Origin: Shigella phage ESh24
Sequence record: ON528734
DNA: 64,000 nucleotides
Direction: 5' to 3' (one strand)
Shown here: positions 40,047 through 59,081 of the stretch, one piece after another
Layout of the letters: the number at the start of each line of letters is the position of its first letter
How positions within the stretch are numbered: the stretch's first letter is position 1
Position numbers and translations under genes: made by a program
The notes under the pieces: model-generated
Database searches by the model: none
What the model saw: the letters and a program-made list of their open reading frames with translations, nothing else
Told to the model about the DNA's origin: nothing

Positions 40047-40145
40047 TTGCTTATTATAAATAGATTATAATTATCTCACTGACCAGCTATGAGGTCATAC
40101 ATCGTCATAGCACCAACTGTTAATTAAATTAAAAAGGAAATAAAA
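40047..40145 (+). promoter_or_regulatory. gene 32 translational operator (pseudoknot plus unstructured A/U-rich tract)
   Basis: TGACC AGCTATGA GGTCA ... TCATAGC pseudoknot-forming repeats, then AATTAAATTAAAAAGGAAATAAAA before ATG. Confidence 0.65.
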
Positions 40146-41054
40146 ATGTTTAAACGTAAATCTACTGCTGAACTCGCTGCACAAATGGCTAAACTGGCTG
40201 GAAATAAAGGTGGTTTTTCTTCTGAAGATAAAGGCGAGTGGAAACTGAAACTCGATAATGCGGGTAATGGTCAAGCAGTAATTCGTTTTCTTCCGTCTAA
40301 AAATGATGAACAAGCACCATTCGCAATTCTTGTAAATCACGGTTTCAAGAAAAATGGTAAATGGTATATTGAAAACTGTTCATCTACCCACGGTGATTAC
40401 GATTCTTGTCCAGTATGTCAGTATATCAGTAAAAATGATCTGTACAACACTGACAATAAAGAGTACAGTCTTGTTAAACGTAAAACTTCTTACTGGGCTA
40501 ACATTCTTGTTGTAAAAGACCCAGCTGCTCCAGAAAACGAAGGTAAAGTATTTAAATATCGTTTCGGTAAGAAAATCTGGGATAAAATCAACGCAATGAT
40601 TGCAGTTGATGTTGAAATGGGTGAAACTCCGGTTGATGTAACTTGTCCGTGGGAAGGTGCTAACTTTGTACTGAAAGTTAAACAAGTTTCTGGATTTAGT
40701 AACTACGACGAATCTAAATTCCTGAATCAATCTGCGATTCCAAACATTGATGATGAATCTTTCCAGAAAGAACTGTTCGAACAAATGGTTGACCTTTCTG
40801 AAATGACTTCTAAAGATAAATTCAAATCGTTTGAAGAACTAAGCACTAAGTTCAGTCAAGTTATGGGAACTGCTGCTATGGGTGGTGCCGCAGCAACTGC
40901 CGCTAAGAAAGCTGATAAAGTTGCTGATGATTTGGATGCATTCAATGTTGATGACTTCAAAACAAAAACTGAAGATGATTTTATGAGCTCAAGCTCTGGC
41001 AGTTCATCTAGTGCTGATGACACGGACCTGGATGACCTTTTGAATGACCTTTAA
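40146..41054 (+). CDS. 32: single-stranded DNA-binding protein gp32
   Basis: [17 protein letters not shown]..., Zn-binding Cys/His, acidic C-tail; T4 gp32. Confidence 0.95.
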
Positions 41055-55639: not shown

Positions 55640-55974
55640 TGAATTTAACTGATATAATTGATAATTGTCTTGAAAATGATACTGGCGATCATAGAGCGCT
55701 TGATTCTGAAACAGCACAGTTCATTAGAATAACTTTAATGAATGATACTCTGGTGAATAGTATTCATCCTTCTGTGTATGATGCTATTATTGTGACGAAG
55801 TATCCAGTTGAGCTTCACAAAAAGATGGTTGGCGCAATTTTTATTGATAAGAAAAACCGCTTTAAAGACGGGCAGAATATAATTAGTTCTATTATTAAAA
55901 GTATAACTAAACTTCGTCACGAAATTTATCGTGTTGAAACTGCTAAATCTGCTTATCTGGTGATTATGAAATGA
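55636..55974 (+). CDS. hypothetical protein
   Basis: 112-aa ORF. Confidence 0.45.
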   Translation: MMNLTDIIDNCLENDTGDHRALDSETAQFIRITLMNDTLVNSIHPSVYDAIIVTKYPVELHKKMVGAIFIDKKNRFKDGQNIISSIIKSITKLRHEIYRVETAKSAYLVIMK

Positions 55975-56552
55975 AAGCGAGTACAGTACTTCAAATTGCA
56001 TATTTAGTATCACAAGAATCAAAATGTTGCTCCTGGAAGGTAGGAGCAGTAATTGAAAAGAATGGACGTATTATTTCTACTGGGTATAATGGTTCGCCTG
56101 CCGGTGGTGTGAACTGCTGTGATTATGCTGCCGAGCAAGGTTGGTTGTTGAATAAACCTAAACATACTATCATTCAAGGTCATAAGCCTGAATGCGTATC
56201 ATTTGGTTCAACTGATCGCTTTGTCTTGGCGAAAGAACACCGTAGCGCTCACTCTGAATGGTCGTCTAAAAATGAAATTCATGCTGAACTAAATGCAATT
56301 TTGTTTGCTGCACGAAATGGTTCTTCTATTGAAGGTGCTACTATGTATGTAACACTTTCTCCTTGTCCAGATTGTGCAAAAGCGATAGCTCAATCTGGTA
56401 TTAAAAAGCTGGTTTATTGCGAAACATACGATAAAAATAAACCTGGCTGGGATGATATTCTGCGAAATGCAGGTATTGAAGTGTTTAATGTTCCTAAGAA
56501 AAACTTGAATAAGTTAAACTGGGAAAATATCAACGAATTCTGTGGTGAATAA
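55971..56552 (+). CDS. cd: dCMP deaminase
   Basis: 193 aa; cytidine/dCMP deaminase Zn motifs HAELNA and SPCPDC. Confidence 0.9.
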   Translation: MKASTVLQIAYLVSQESKCCSWKVGAVIEKNGRIISTGYNGSPAGGVNCCDYAAEQGWLLNKPKHTIIQGHKPECVSFGSTDRFVLAKEHRSAHSEWSSKNEIHAELNAILFAARNGSSIEGATMYVTLSPCPDCAKAIAQSGIKKLVYCETYDKNKPGWDDILRNAGIEVFNVPKKNLNKLNWENINEFCGE

Positions 56553-56789: not shown

Positions 56790-57098
56790 ATGAAACTGAC
56801 AACTGAGCAGAAAGTAGCAATTCGCGAAATTTTGAAAACTAAATTGTCCATGGGTGTTTCAAACGTAGTTTTTGAAAAGTCTGATGGTACTATTCGTACT
56901 ATGAAAGGTACTCGTGATGCAGACTTTATGCCAACCATGCAAACCGGTAAGTTGACTGAATCTACTCGGAAAGAATCTACGGATATGATTCCAGTATTTG
57001 ATGTTGAACTTGGTGCATGGCGAGGTTTTTCTATTGACAAATTGATTTCCGTTAATGGTATGAAAGTTGAGCATTTACTCCAATTTATTGGTAAATAA
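56790..57098 (+). CDS. hypothetical protein (31.1 position)
   Basis: 102-aa ORF. Confidence 0.5.
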   Translation: MKLTTEQKVAIREILKTKLSMGVSNVVFEKSDGTIRTMKGTRDADFMPTMQTGKLTESTRKESTDMIPVFDVELGAWRGFSIDKLISVNGMKVEHLLQFIGK

Positions 57099-57154
57099 AT
57101 GCTTTAAGAATTATTTGTTATTATTAACTCATCTGTTAACAAAAAGGAAAAACG

Positions 57155-57490
57155 ATGTCTGAAGTACAACAGCTACCAATTCGTGCTGTCGGTGAATATG
57201 TTATTTTAGTTTCTGAACCTGCACAGGCTGGTGATGAAGAAGTTACAGAATCAGGACTTATTATCGGTAAACGTGTTCAAGGTGAAGTTCCTGAACTGTG
57301 TGTAGTTCACTCTGTTGGTCCTGATGTTCCTGAAGGTTTCTGCGAAGTTGGTGATTTGACTTCTCTTCCAGTTGGTCAAATTCGAAATGTTCCGCATCCT
57401 TTTGTAGCTCTGGGTCTTAAGCAGCCAAAAGAAATTAAACAAAAATTTGTTACCTGTCATTATAAAGCTATTCCGTGTCTTTATAAGTGA
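57155..57490 (+). CDS. 31: co-chaperonin gp31 (GroES analogue)
   Basis: 111 aa; T4 gp31 length and position next to rIII. Confidence 0.85.
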
Positions 57491-57637
57491 TATAAATAAT
57501 AATATGAATTGGGTGTCGGAATAATAAGTTAACCGAACAATTCTATGTGGTAGTCTACAACTGAGAGATCTGTCGAAAGAAGATGAAATTCAGAAGAACG
57601 TGACTACCGAGTTTTAATCTCTAACGAGAATTTTTAA

Positions 57638-57886
57638 ATGATTAAACAATTACAACACGCTCTTGAACTGCAACGAAACGCATGGAATAATGGTCACGAA
57701 AACTATGGCGCATCTATTGATGTTGAAGCCGAAGCTCTTGAAATCCTGCGTTATTTCAAACATCTAAATCCTGCTCAAACTGCATTAGCTGCTGAGCTTC
57801 AGGAAAAAGATGAACTTAAGTATGCTAAGCCTCTGGCTTCTGCTGCACGAAAAGCAGTTCGTCACTTTGTGGTAACATTGAAGTAA
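57638..57886 (+). CDS. rIII: lysis inhibition accessory protein RIII
   Basis: 82 aa MIKQLQHALELQRNAWNNGHENYG...; T4 rIII length. Confidence 0.8.
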   Translation: MIKQLQHALELQRNAWNNGHENYGASIDVEAEALEILRYFKHLNPAQTALAAELQEKDELKYAKPLASAARKAVRHFVVTLK

Positions 57887-58283
57887 TTTATTGGAGATTC
57901 ACTGCCTTAGTGTGAGCTAAAATCGAGGAGCCATCGAACTGTCTGATTAATGATTTGCGAATCATTATAGTTTTAAGACCCTGGCAGTTTTATGGTGTAC
58001 CTCTTGAATGTTATTTTATAGCGGCAAGTGCATGCTACCCCGAGGTGATGGCCAATCGGGAGTACGCCTTAAGGCCTATATATCCATCAGTATATATCTT
58101 ATCCTCGAGTAATCGGACCCGGAACCTTTAAGCTAACGGTGTGCAACAGATAAGAGCTATAAGGTATGATGACGGGTTTATGGTTATCCTGGTCGTTAAA
58201 TATCCAAAAACCTATGTTCCCCTTGAGGGCTTGCGCAGGCAATGCCAATAAGTCCTGCATTTTCATTTAAAAGAGAATTTATA
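57887..58283. other. 397-bp ORF-free, GC-elevated intergenic segment (candidate structured RNA or decayed insert)
   Basis: no ORF over about 35 codons in any frame; visibly higher G+C than flanks; perfect hairpin TAATGATT-TGCG-AATCATTA at 57947-57966. Confidence 0.4.
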
Positions 58284-58460
58284 ATGGCAAAACAAGCTAA
58301 AGCAAAGAAAGCAGTTGAAAAGAAAGTTGGTGATTCTAAACGCGCTGGTTACAAGCGTGGGTCGAACTCTCGTATCAATCAAACTGTTGAGAAGATCATG
58401 CGCCGAGCACGTGCGGTTCTTCGAGATGATGCTTCTCGTTTTGGTAAGCAGAAAGCATAA
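58284..58460 (+). CDS. hypothetical small basic protein
   Basis: 58 aa MAKQAKAKKAVEKKVGDSKRAGYKRG..., Lys/Arg-rich. Confidence 0.4.
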   Translation: MAKQAKAKKAVEKKVGDSKRAGYKRGSNSRINQTVEKIMRRARAVLRDDASRFGKQKA

Positions 58461-58475
58461 GTTGAGGACTCCTTC

Positions 58476-58499
58476 GGGAGTCCTTTTTTATTTTCCAAA
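58476..58499 (+). terminator. intrinsic terminator (same hairpin as after soc)
   Basis: GGACTCCTTCGGGAGTCC + TTTTTTATTTT. Confidence 0.7.
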
Positions 58500-58513
58500 G
58501 ATTGCATAAAGTT

Positions 58514-58546
58514 GTTTACAGTATGGTTCCTTTGTGATAGTATTAT
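58514..58546 (+). promoter_or_regulatory. T4-type early promoter
   Basis: GTTTAC 58514-58519, TAGTATTAT -10 region. Confidence 0.45.
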
Positions 58547-58596
58547 CTTACACAAACAAAAGAAAAGGGCTTCGGCCCCTTACTGAGGAAAATATT

Positions 58597-58884
58597 ATGT
58601 TTATGACTACTTATTTTGATACCCGTAAAAATTTCTGTGAAGTGGTTTTCTCAAAGGCGCCTAAAGACCTTCCTGCTCATTTGCAACCTACCAGTGAATC
58701 GATTAAAAATTACGTTGATGTGGTTTGTCCTTTAGAATTCCGTACAGTAAATGGGCGTGATACTTTAGCTATCACTAAACTCAATCGTGAAATTGACATT
58801 GACCCTTCAATTGCGAGTGAAATTAACATTTCTGATATTGGCGGTGGTAATGTTAAATCACACGGCTTTCAGATGAGGTTCTAA
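58597..58884 (+). CDS. hypothetical protein
   Basis: 95 aa from ATG 58597, RBS TGAGGAAAA, preceded by GGGCTTCGGCCC hairpin. Confidence 0.45.
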   Translation: MFMTTYFDTRKNFCEVVFSKAPKDLPAHLQPTSESIKNYVDVVCPLEFRTVNGRDTLAITKLNREIDIDPSIASEINISDIGGGNVKSHGFQMRF

Positions 58885-59081
58885 TGAAATTCTTTTTAGG
58901 TCAAACTGTTGAATTAAAGGGAGTTGGTATACCTGGATTAATTTCTAAGGTTCTACCTCCATTTAAATGGAGTGGTATTCAAATAAAAGAGGCTTATATT
59001 GTTTCCTGGGTAGATGGAAATGAAGACCTTCGCATGGGTGATGAATTATCTCCTATTTACGGATTAAAGGAATTAGTATGA
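58884..59081 (+). CDS. hypothetical protein
   Basis: 65-aa ORF. Confidence 0.4.
   Translation: MKFFLGQTVELKGVGIPGLISKVLPPFKWSGIQIKEAYIVSWVDGNEDLRMGDELSPIYGLKELV

What the first reader, a model, noticed from the sequence alone, without database searches (positions are those of the whole stretch)
57887..58283. 397-bp ORF-free, GC-elevated island between rIII and the 30.x gene array
Intergenic gaps in this genome are typically under 100 bp and AT-rich, holding only a promoter and a terminator hairpin. This gap is about 400 bp, has no ORF above roughly 35 codons in any frame, lacks the GTTTAC early-promoter box, and is visibly more G+C-rich than its surroundings. It contains stable local hairpins (TAATGATT-TGCG-AATCATTA at 57947-57966; CCCGA...TCGGG around 58040-58060). 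It could be a structured non-coding RNA, the decayed remnant of an inserted gene, or a regulatory or origin element.
Basis: seen in the sequence. Interest (0 to 1): 0.55.

Follow-up and report, generated by a model that had tools for sequence, protein, structure and literature searches.

The report
Modular structured RNA upstream of 30.9
The 397-base gap after the lysis-inhibition gene rIII of this T4-like phage is not junk: it encodes a conserved, elaborately folded RNA built from interchangeable modules, which matches no catalogued RNA family and whose function is unknown, although it most likely controls the small basic protein gene that follows it.

Summary
The gap is real (57887-58283, rIII stop to 30.9 ATG). 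It is non-coding and mildly GC-rich: 41% against 35% for the window, and 49% in its central block. It specifies a + strand structured RNA inside the rIII-30.9 transcript. Comparison of more than 45 distinct versions, spanning at least nine named genera of T4-like phages, shows a mosaic of independently folding modules. In this window they are an S hairpin, a three-helix arm capped by a UNCG loop (A2), a 139-nt multi-helix domain (B), an H-type pseudoknot (H), two hairpins (T1, T2), and a hairpin that pairs the Shine-Dalgarno of 30.9. Compensatory base changes support the helices: 16-22 of 34 pairs in B and 5 of 24 in A2, with several covarying pairs in H, S and T1. B is 93-95% identical across genera in which rIII is only 74-79% identical. 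T4 itself lacks B. Module order is permuted in some phages. A T4-type copy sits inside the tRNA array of the unrelated phage phi92. Nothing matches Rfam 15, tRNA/tmRNA models, protein families or E. coli genomes. Best guess is a cis-acting translational operator or leader for 30.9. A trans-acting stable RNA is a serious rival. The function is untested.

The parts
57887..58283 (+). Whole rIII-30.9 intercistronic RNA (397 nt), transcribed with rIII and 30.9
   Evidence: Gene map and ORFs. No promoter-like or terminator-like site lies inside it; the strong terminator comes only after 30.9 at 58464-58485. 179 phage records carry the full-length version.
57899..57915 (+). Module S: hairpin UCAC-UGCCUUAGU-GUGA with a conserved 9-nt loop
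   Evidence: Stem variants UCAC/GUGA, UCGC/GCGG, UUGC/GCAG and AGC/GCU occur around the loop U(A/G)C(C/U/A)(U/A)(U/A)AG(U/C), with one extra A in some variants. The module sits at different places in different phages.
57921..58011 (+). Module A2: nested helices a1 (57925-28/58000-03), a2 (57930-34/57992-96), a3 (57937-43/57983-89) and the UNCG-capped hairpin a4 (57948-55, loop UGCG, 57960-67)
   Evidence: Alignment A4, 14 distinct sequences: 99.1% of cells are paired and 5 of 24 pairs have changes on both sides. At most 1 of 500 shuffles reaches the observed value for four of the five measures (78 of 500 for 'further standard pair types'), and slid controls give 0-1 such pairs. The loop is UGCG in most sequences, UACG in L042 (both UNCG) and UGAG in L021.
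58018..58156 (+). Module B: 139-nt domain. P2 58034-43/58056-67; P3 58077-84/58089-96; P4 58097-103/58149-55 closes a three-way junction with P5 58105-08/58113-16 (GUAA loop here; GAAA or GUAA in most homologues) and P6 58117-21/58137-42. Absent from T4 itself.
   Evidence: Alignment A3, 20 sequences: 97.9% paired, 16 of 34 pairs compensatory, 0 of 500 shuffles reach this, slid controls give 1-4. Covariance model R1 gives a single hit in the 64-kb window (167 bits) and finds the divergent L098, which was not in the training set (99.9 bits). On that alignment 22 of 34 pairs are compensatory. B is 93-95% identical across genera in which rIII is 74-79% identical.
58167..58212 (+). Module H: H-type pseudoknot. 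S1 is UGAUGAC 58167-73 with GUCGUUA 58192-98. S2 is GGUUUAUGG 58175-83 with CCAAAAACC 58204-12 (minimal register GGUU 58182-85 with AACC 58209-12).
   Evidence: In 29 distinct sequences the three outer S1 pairs are 100% paired, as GAC/GUC, GGC/GCC, GUC/GAC, GUG/CAC or GUU/AAC. S2 lies at a constant offset with lineage-specific sequences: UUAGUAGUU/AACUACUAA, UUGUUGGUU/AACCAACGG, UUGUGAG/CUCACAA. H is present in every structured-RNA version of the gap that I examined.
58216..58233 (+). Module T1: hairpin GU(U/A)CCC-loop-GGGC followed by the conserved CUUG
   Evidence: Stem variants CCC/GGG, CCUC/GAGG, GCC/GGC and GCU/AGC. T1 lies 3' of H in this phage and 5' of H or of B in L057, L058, L063 and L066.
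58235..58268 (+). Module T2: hairpin GCAGG (58235-39) / CCUGC (58254-58), followed by the U-rich AUUUUCAUUU
   Evidence: A hairpin is present at this position in every lineage, with unrelated stems (GGGAGC/GCUCCC, GGGAAC/GUUCCC, GAGAG/CUCUC, GGUGGAG/CUCCAC, GAACUGG/CCAGUUC, GGCGA/UCGCC). The scan did not call it a terminator.
58260..58286 (+). Ribosome-binding region of 30.9: UUUUC (58260-64) can pair with the Shine-Dalgarno GAGAA (58273-77); ATG at 58284
   Evidence: Equivalent SD-pairing hairpins with other sequences occur in other lineages: UCUCC/GGAAGA, CCUC/GAGG, UCCAA/UUGGA. These are predicted folds only.
58284..58460 (+). Gene 30.9: 58-aa lysine/arginine-rich protein, always immediately downstream of the RNA
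   Evidence: PHROG 1427 (unknown function), no Pfam hit and no PDB relative. Invariant residues include S18, R20, A21, Y23, K24, N28, R30, A42 and R43. The AlphaFold model has one long helix (residues 29-51) and a low-confidence N-terminus.

Best explanation
SHOWN. The gap is the template for a + strand, non-coding, highly structured RNA segment lying between rIII and 30.9 on the same transcript. It is a chain of independently folding modules: the S hairpin, the A2 arm with a UNCG-capped hairpin, the 139-nt B domain with a GNRA-capped hairpin and a three-way junction, the H-type pseudoknot H, and hairpins T1 and T2. Selection maintains these helices through compensatory substitutions across the T4-like phages of enterobacteria. 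The modules are gained, lost and re-ordered by recombination.

INFERRED. The element most likely acts in cis as a translational operator or leader for 30.9. The parts found in all structured versions (H, T1, a T2-type hairpin and a pyrimidine tract that can pair with the Shine-Dalgarno) sit directly in front of the 30.9 start codon. The ribosome-binding site would be occluded or exposed according to the folding state of the leader, or according to a bound factor. That factor could be the arginine-rich gp30.9 itself, by analogy with the gp32-pseudoknot autoregulation of T4 gene 32. A2 and B would be accessory modules that tune or add inputs.
For: Structure. B has 16 of 34 pairs, or 22 of 34 on the model-based alignment, with changes on both sides, about 98% of cells paired, and 0 of 500 shuffles reaching this. 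A2 has 5 of 24. H stems S1 and S2 covary over 29 distinct sequences. S, T1 and the UGUACG-loop hairpin covary.

Strand. There are 59 G.U cells against 10 A.C cells under the proposed pairs.

Non-coding. No conserved ORF, no codon periodicity, no family hits.

Constraint. B is 93-95% identical where gene 31 is 71-81% and rIII 74-79% identical. A2 and H are near-identical between T4 and a Mosigvirus whose rIII 3' end has diverged.

Cis context. The element always lies between rIII and 30.9 in the same orientation. There is no internal promoter or terminator. Each lineage has a T2-type hairpin followed by a pyrimidine tract able to pair with its own SD, with different sequences in different lineages. 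In phi92 the leader still precedes a translated ORF, a chimera of ATG-G and the last 27 codons of rIII.

Precedent. The T4 gene 32 operator is a pseudoknot upstream of an AU-rich RBS (PMC3014915; its sequence in this window is shown).
Against: No expression, processing or binding data were available, so the cis mechanism is inference only.

B is conserved more strongly than most cis leaders, yet it is dispensable: it is absent from T4 and from L123 while present in close relatives.

Module order is permuted (T1 before B or H in L057, L058, L063, L066), which suggests autonomous modules rather than one integrated sensor.

The T4-type RNA was captured without 30.9 into a tRNA gene array in phi92-like phages, which is where stable RNAs are made.

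The most distant 30.9 homologue (L125) has only a terminator and a promoter in the gap, so 30.9 does not need the RNA.

The SD-pairing hairpins are short (4-5 bp) and rest on predicted folds.
Confidence: 0.45

Rival explanations
1. Trans-acting stable non-coding RNA(s). The gap, or single modules such as B, is cut out of the rIII-30.9 transcript and accumulates. It then acts on a host or phage factor, for example as a decoy or sponge for a host nuclease, RNA-binding protein or defence system, or as a scaffold bound by gp30.9.
For: B is 93-95% identical across genera, well above the neighbouring genes. B is an optional cassette, gained or lost between close relatives (T4 versus this window; L123 versus L122). 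Modules are shuffled and permuted like accessory genes. A T4-type copy (99.6% identical) lies between tRNA-Gly and tRNA-Gln in the tRNA array of phi92 and its relatives, where RNAs are processed into stable species. UNCG and GNRA loops and a multi-helix junction are typical of compact stable RNAs.
Against: No promoter or terminator of its own. The element always abuts the 30.9 RBS and includes SD-pairing sequences. No processing signals were identified. The phi92 copy is recent (99.6%), so its retention says little about function, and there it still drives an ORF.
Confidence: 0.3
2. mRNA stability or processing element. The compact folds protect the upstream gene 31/rIII message from 3' exonucleases, or position endonuclease cuts (RegB at GGAG, RNase E) that uncouple rIII and 30.9 expression.
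For: There are three GGAG motifs (57893, 57927, 58059), and RegB cuts intergenic GGAG (PMC3014915). In several phages the structured blocks start immediately after the rIII stop codon. rIII is expressed from early, middle and late promoters (PMC9409239).
Against: The GGAG sites do not fit the extended RegB consensus GGAGRAYARAA, and two of them lie inside helices. GGAG is not conserved in the minimal forms (L063, L066). A simple protective hairpin does not explain 139 nt of near-invariant B or a conserved pseudoknot.
Confidence: 0.12
3. Module B (or H) is a ligand-sensing riboswitch aptamer or a self-cleaving ribozyme of a class not yet described.
For: B has a conserved multi-helix junction with invariant joining strands (GCUAACGG, GCAACAGAU). 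Its size and conservation are typical of aptamers and small ribozymes. H is an H-type pseudoknot with an A-rich loop, as in several pseudoknot riboswitches. SD sequestration lies downstream.
Against: No Rfam family matches, even at E<=10. B is optional and sits at variable distance and order relative to the RBS. The regulated gene is a tiny basic protein with no metabolic link. No alternative-pairing switch was demonstrated.
Confidence: 0.08
4. Protein-coding or decayed-gene remnant, or a DNA-level element such as an origin or recombination site.
For: Mechanical ORFs of 58 and 55 codons exist. Older T4 entries annotated a 97-aa '11.1 kDa protein in Gp30-rIII intergenic region' reading through H, T1 and T2. 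One GenBank record carries an automated 'ori type 2 repeat' tag.
Against: The ORFs are not conserved between phages, variable columns fall 23/23/21 by codon position, indels are not multiples of three, and there are no PHROG hits. From its sequence I infer that the 97-aa reading arose from a frameshift relative to the current sequence (one search compared). The compensatory changes and the excess of G.U over A.C indicate selection on a + strand RNA.
Confidence: 0.05

Closest known systems
Translational operator of T4 gene 32 (pseudoknot plus AU-rich RBS, autoregulated by gp32)
   Same: An H-type pseudoknot lies tens of nucleotides upstream of the start codon in a T4 mRNA leader. The ribosome-binding region is AU-rich. 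The downstream product is a nucleic-acid-binding-type protein (for 30.9 this is inferred only from its basic composition). The gene 32 leader is present in this same window, with its pseudoknot roughly at 40078-40113 (read; PMC3014915).
   Different: I saw no sequence similarity to the gene 32 pseudoknot (by eye). Two conserved hairpins (T1, T2) lie between the pseudoknot and the RBS rather than an unstructured UUAAA-repeat tract. The leader is 4-6 times longer and carries additional large modules (A2, B). Binding of gp30.9 is untested.
Riboswitches and ribosomal-protein leaders (cis-acting structured 5' regions that sequester the Shine-Dalgarno)
   Same: Conserved covarying multi-helix domain(s) directly upstream of a gene, with a pyrimidine tract able to pair with the SD.
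   Different: No match to any Rfam riboswitch or leader. The largest conserved domain (B) is optional and changes position. No ligand and no switch helices were identified.
PeSL cassettes and mini-circle-mediated modular shuffling in T4-type genomes (Arbiol et al. 2010, PMC2839356)
   Same: The same kind of hyperplastic region with module-wise gain, loss and exchange. The phi92 insertion is a circularly permuted 332-bp unit flanked by a 13-bp direct repeat, as expected if a small circle integrated.
   Different: PeSLs are an early promoter plus a terminator stem-loop flanking ORFans. The gap contains neither. What is shuffled here are structured RNA modules, not promoter-terminator cassettes.
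Stable small RNAs encoded with the tRNA genes of T4 (species 1 and 2, rnaC/rnaD) (from my own knowledge, not checked here)
   Same: Phage-encoded non-coding RNAs of unknown function. The phi92 copy of this element lies within a tRNA gene cluster.
   Different: In T4-like phages the element is not in the tRNA cluster, has no tRNA-like fold, and is physically joined to an mRNA.

Membership tests
Any Rfam 15 family (4227 covariance models) | Covariance-model score at or above the family's gathering threshold | tested here: not met
   No hit in the gap even at E<=10 (window 57000-59000). No hit in the gap of seven diverse homologous loci. No gathering-level hit anywhere in the 64-kb window.
tRNA / tmRNA | Cloverleaf or tmRNA fold detectable by ARAGORN | tested here: not met
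   0 genes in the whole window.
Gene 32-type autogenous translational operator | H-type pseudoknot in the leader upstream of the RBS | tested here: met
   Both stems of H covary over 29 distinct sequences. In this window H lies 72-117 nt upstream of the ATG.
Gene 32-type autogenous translational operator | Unstructured A+U-rich tract with UUAAA repeats running from the pseudoknot into the RBS | tested here: not met
   Conserved hairpins T1 and T2 occupy the interval; only the last 25 nt or so are AU-rich.
Gene 32-type autogenous translational operator | Repression by the product of the downstream gene binding its own leader | not testable with these tools
   gp30.9 is small, basic and arginine-rich, with one predicted long helix, which is compatible with RNA binding, but no binding data exist.
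Riboswitch | Conserved aptamer with covariation, invariably coupled to an expression platform | tested here: inconclusive
   Covarying domains and SD-pairing tracts exist. However, B is absent from T4 and L123 and changes position relative to the RBS.
Riboswitch | Specific ligand binding | not testable with these tools
   Requires in-line probing or ITC.
PeSL (promoter-early stem-loop) cassette | T4-type early promoter (GTTTAC -35 box) joined to a terminator stem-loop | tested here: not met
   No GTTTAC and no promoter-like or terminator-like site in 57887-58283. A terminator plus early-type promoter pair does lie downstream of 30.9 at 58464-58543.
Protein-coding gene or its decayed remnant | Conserved reading frame, third-position bias of substitutions, family similarity | tested here: not met
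   The longest ORFs differ in frame and position between phages. Variable columns fall 23/23/21 by codon position. No PHROG hits.
Self-cleaving ribozyme (known classes) | Match to a known class; site-specific self-scission | tested here: not met
   No Rfam ribozyme family matched. Self-scission of a possible new class is not testable here.

The most novel reading that the evidence does not exclude
The rIII-30.9 gap is an 'RNA cassette array': a locus where T4-like phages collect, exchange and permute autonomous functional RNA modules. Module B would be a new class of mobile structured RNA, such as an aptamer, a ribozyme or a decoy against a host factor or defence system, that works in trans and spreads horizontally between phage genera, and even into unrelated phages via small DNA circles.
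Probability: 0.2. Interest if true: 0.85.

Novelty: new variant of a known kind. Interest (0 to 1): 0.66.

Why it matters
T4 is the best-studied phage. The standard review of its post-transcriptional control (PMC3014915) does not mention rIII or 30.9 and treats the gene 32 pseudoknot as possibly the only viral case of a pseudoknot used in translational autoregulation.

A 160-420-nt RNA (244 nt in T4) with covarying structure is present in roughly a thousand sequenced relatives, matches no Rfam family, and is left unannotated, or covered only by 'hypothetical protein' calls, in the GenBank records I inspected. That would add a new regulatory or non-coding RNA to the T4 model system. It would also give a function-linked handle on the orphan gene 30.9.

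The locus further provides a natural example of RNA modules being shuffled, permuted and horizontally transferred, which bears on how complex RNAs evolve. Module B in particular is a compact, highly conserved fold that is worth testing for ligand binding, catalysis or protein binding.

Tried and rejected
Thermodynamic test. Single-sequence MFE against shuffles was not significant on either strand, so I dropped it as a criterion.

Known RNA families. Rfam scans of the region, of seven homologous loci and of the whole window found nothing in the gap. The only nearby hit, Atu_C8 at 58416-58499, is simply the 30.9 terminator hairpin.

tRNA/tmRNA. None.

Coding potential. The two longest ORFs have no PHROG hits, and rIII and 30.9 have no Pfam hits in this library. 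There is no codon periodicity.

Host origin or paralogues. No match in 5,426 complete E. coli genomes. The exact B core is absent from 185,579 species genomes. No second copy in the window by blastn or by covariance model.

Long-range helix between the 5' end of B (CGGCAAG) and the CUUGCG after T1. This was attractive because in L057 and L058 the two strands are adjacent. I rejected it as unproven: there is no covariation, a C.U mismatch in L006, L064 and L080, and CUUG is equally conserved in phages without B.

Other candidate tertiary pairings. Pairing between the P2 loop GGCC and the downstream GGCC, or between the CCUUAAGG stretch and the P6 loop, is contradicted by the variant sequences (read from the alignment).

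T2 as an intrinsic terminator. The scan does not call it one, and in most lineages the U-tract is not adjacent to the stem.

Literature. Searches for the rIII-30.9 region, for T4 non-coding RNAs and for phage structured-RNA surveys found no description of this element. Miller et al. 2003 and Driukas & Nivinskas 2003 could not be read.

gp30.9 fold. The first related-locus search was run in the wrong reading frame and was repeated correctly with a protein alignment. The AlphaFold model is a single helix (pLDDT 67), so I did not run a fold search.

Full report
OBSERVATION. The window is a Tequatrovirus (T4-like) genome segment read on the strand opposite to the T4 map. It carries cd (55971-56552), gene 31 (57155-57490), rIII (57638-57886) and 30.9 (58284-58460). 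The reported gap runs exactly from the rIII stop codon to the 30.9 ATG: 57887-58283, 397 bp. It contains no promoter-like or terminator-like site and no GTTTAC box. The next strong terminator is after 30.9 (58464-58485), followed by an early-type promoter. The gap is therefore an internal part of the rIII-30.9 transcript. Its GC content is 41.3% against 35.4% for the window (95th percentile). Only the central block (48.9%) exceeds the flanking genes. Folding energy against shuffles is unremarkable (z = -1.2 and -0.5).

DISTRIBUTION AND MOSAIC STRUCTURE. blastn against 50,697 phage records finds 989 records with part of the gap and 179 with all of it. T4 itself has a 244-bp version that is nearly identical but lacks the central ~150 bp, 58012-58163, which includes module B. 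That central block alone is 92-95% identical in Klebsiella, Citrobacter, Enterobacter and other T4-like genera, again directly after rIII.

I collected more than 45 distinct versions of the gap from GenBank, IMG/VR, metagenomes and Logan assemblies. They form a mosaic of recurring blocks:
- S: a hairpin with a conserved 9-nt loop.
- A2: a three-helix arm.
- B: a 139-nt domain.
- D: a Mosigvirus-type hairpin.
- X: a hairpin with a UGUACG loop.
- H: a pseudoknot.
- T1 and T2: hairpins.

The window has S-A2-B-H-T1-T2, and T4 has S-A2-H-T1-T2. Klebsiella phages have X-H-S-B-T1-T2. Merlin has B-H-T1-T2. The minimal forms are T1-H-hairpin (120 nt, Pet-CM3-4) and T1-H-S-hairpin (160 nt, Virsaitis27). 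In EcS1 and EcL8g, T1 precedes B. B is present or absent between close relatives: the window versus T4, and L122 versus L123. The most distant 30.9 homologue found (L125) has only a terminator and a promoter in the gap.

EVIDENCE FOR RNA STRUCTURE.
- Module B (20 distinct sequences, alignment A3). Five helices totalling 34 pairs are 97.9% paired. Sixteen pairs show changes on both sides. No shuffle out of 500 reaches this, and sliding the partners by 1-3 columns gives 1-4 such pairs and 28-47% pairing. A covariance model built from A3 hits the 64-kb window once (58018-58156, + strand, 167 bits). It does not hit T4, ATK48 or phi92, and it recovers a divergent homologue (L098, 99.9 bits) that was not used in training. 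With L098 included, 22 of 34 pairs are compensatory. P5 is capped by GAAA or GUAA in most sequences. P4, P5 and P6 form a three-way junction with invariant joining strands.
- Module A2 (14 sequences). That hairpin is capped by UGCG in most sequences and by UACG in L042 (both UNCG), and by UGAG in L021.
- Module H. It folds as an H-type pseudoknot. The outer three pairs of S1 are paired in all 29 distinct sequences, as GAC/GUC, GGC/GCC, GUC/GAC, GUG/CAC or GUU/AAC. S2 pairs the S1 loop with a segment at a constant distance downstream, using lineage-specific sequences.
- S, X and T1. Each shows several stem variants around conserved loops.
- T2. It is a hairpin with an unrelated stem in each lineage. 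It is followed by a pyrimidine tract that can pair with that lineage's Shine-Dalgarno: UUUUC/GAGAA here, and UCUCC/GGAAGA, CCUC/GAGG or UCCAA/UUGGA elsewhere.

STRAND, CODING AND CONSTRAINT. Under the B and A2 pairs there are 59 G.U cells against 10 A.C cells, so the folded molecule is the + strand, the sense of rIII and 30.9. No ORF is conserved between versions. Variable columns in B fall 23/23/21 over codon positions, indels are not multiples of three, and the two longest ORFs have no PHROG match. B is 93-95% identical between genera in which gene 31 is 71-81% and rIII 74-79% identical.

NOT A KNOWN FAMILY. Rfam 15 gives nothing in the gap, even at E<=10, in this window or in seven diverse loci. 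ARAGORN finds no tRNA or tmRNA. There is no homologue in 5,426 E. coli genomes, and no exact B core in 185,579 species genomes. Full-text searches found no description of the element. The 2010 review of T4 post-transcriptional control does not mention rIII or 30.9. Older T4 entries named a 97-aa '11.1 kDa protein in Gp30-rIII intergenic region' that read through H, T1 and T2; its sequence looks frameshifted relative to the current one.

HOW IT PROBABLY WORKS (INFERENCE). The parts common to all structured versions (H, T1, a T2-type hairpin and an SD-pairing tract) lie directly in front of the 30.9 start codon. The element has no transcription signals of its own. gp30.9 is a 58-aa protein rich in lysine and arginine, with one predicted long helix and a low-confidence N-terminus. 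The closest precedent is the T4 gene 32 operator, a pseudoknot upstream of an AU-rich RBS bound by the gene's own product (leader sequence in this window). I therefore favour a cis-acting translational operator or leader for 30.9, possibly autogenous, with A2 and B as accessory modules (confidence about 0.45).

The main rival (about 0.3) is a trans-acting stable RNA. Four observations favour it. B is both extremely conserved and optional. Modules behave like mobile accessory cassettes. 30.9 can exist without the RNA. A 99.6%-identical T4-type copy sits between tRNA-Gly and tRNA-Gln in phi92 and its relatives.

That phi92 copy is a circularly permuted 332-bp unit consisting of the gap, then ATGG, then the last 85 nt of rIII. 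It is flanked by the 13-bp direct repeat TTTATTGGAGATT, whose last 8 nt are the 5' end of tRNA-Gln. This is what integration of a small DNA circle would produce, a route shown for T4-type phages by Arbiol et al. (PMC2839356). An mRNA stability or processing role, a new riboswitch or ribozyme, and coding or DNA-level explanations are less likely. They are set out, with their tests, under the rival explanations.

VERDICT. The element is a previously uncatalogued, modular, covariation-supported RNA family of enterobacterial T4-like phages. The structure is shown; the function is inferred and untested.

Noticed in passing
L007 (phage phi92, FR775895.2) 2501-2845; also L041 and LC739536: A T4-type rIII-30.9 RNA (S-A2-H-T1-T2-SD, 99.6% identical) is inserted in the tRNA array of an unrelated Justusliebigvirus. 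It is a circularly permuted 332-bp unit flanked by the 13-bp direct repeat TTTATTGGAGATT, abutting tRNA-Gln. It creates a chimeric ORF (gp113) that ends in the last 27 residues of RIII.
   Followed up: partly
window 58167-58286; proteins P0043, P0044: UniRef still holds a 97-aa 'Uncharacterized 11.1 kDa protein in Gp30-rIII intergenic region' for T4, and some genomes annotate 68-102-aa versions of 30.9 that read into the RNA. Several GenBank records label 30.9 as '1,4-alpha-glucan branching enzyme GH-13' and 31.1/31.2 as 'tail fibers protein'. These look like annotation artefacts.
   Followed up: partly
window 58179-58183 with 58211-58216; L067, L080: In the T4 group the pseudoknot region carries UAUGG...CCUAUG, and exactly UAUGG...CCUAAG in STML-198 and L080. 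This is the sequence of the classic 11-nt GAAA-tetraloop receptor, and module B carries a GAAA/GUAA loop. I found no covariation between loop and receptor, and T4 has the receptor-like motif without B.
   Followed up: partly
L006/L052 5' end, L098 3' end, L099, L064, L122; inside T2 of L016/L017: A hairpin with the invariant hexaloop UGUACG recurs at different positions of the gap in different phages. Its stems covary: CCAUG/CAUGG, CUCUG/CAGAG, CUUUG/CAAAG. It may be a protein-binding site.
   Followed up: partly
L082 (metagenome contig QZLZ01027750.1): A natural variant in which the T1 loop is fused directly to the middle of 30.9, deleting T2, the RBS and the first half of the gene. This is either a deletion mutant or an assembly artefact.
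   Followed up: no
window about 40078-40113 (leader of gene 32, ATG at 40146): The classical gene 32 autoregulatory pseudoknot is present in this window, yet no Rfam family reached its gathering score anywhere in the window.
   Followed up: no
window 58416-58499: A weak Rfam hit to the Rhizobiales sRNA Atu_C8 (31 bits against a gathering score of 50). It is just the intrinsic terminator hairpin after 30.9. Together with the early-type promoter at 58515-58543 it forms a PeSL-like terminator-promoter pair.
   Followed up: yes
L125 (Logan SRR23015449 contig): The most distant 30.9 homologue (88 aa) keeps the gene 31-rIII-30.9 order. Its 141-bp gap holds only a terminator and a sigma-70-like promoter, so the structured RNA appears restricted to a subset of T4-like phages.
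   Followed up: partly
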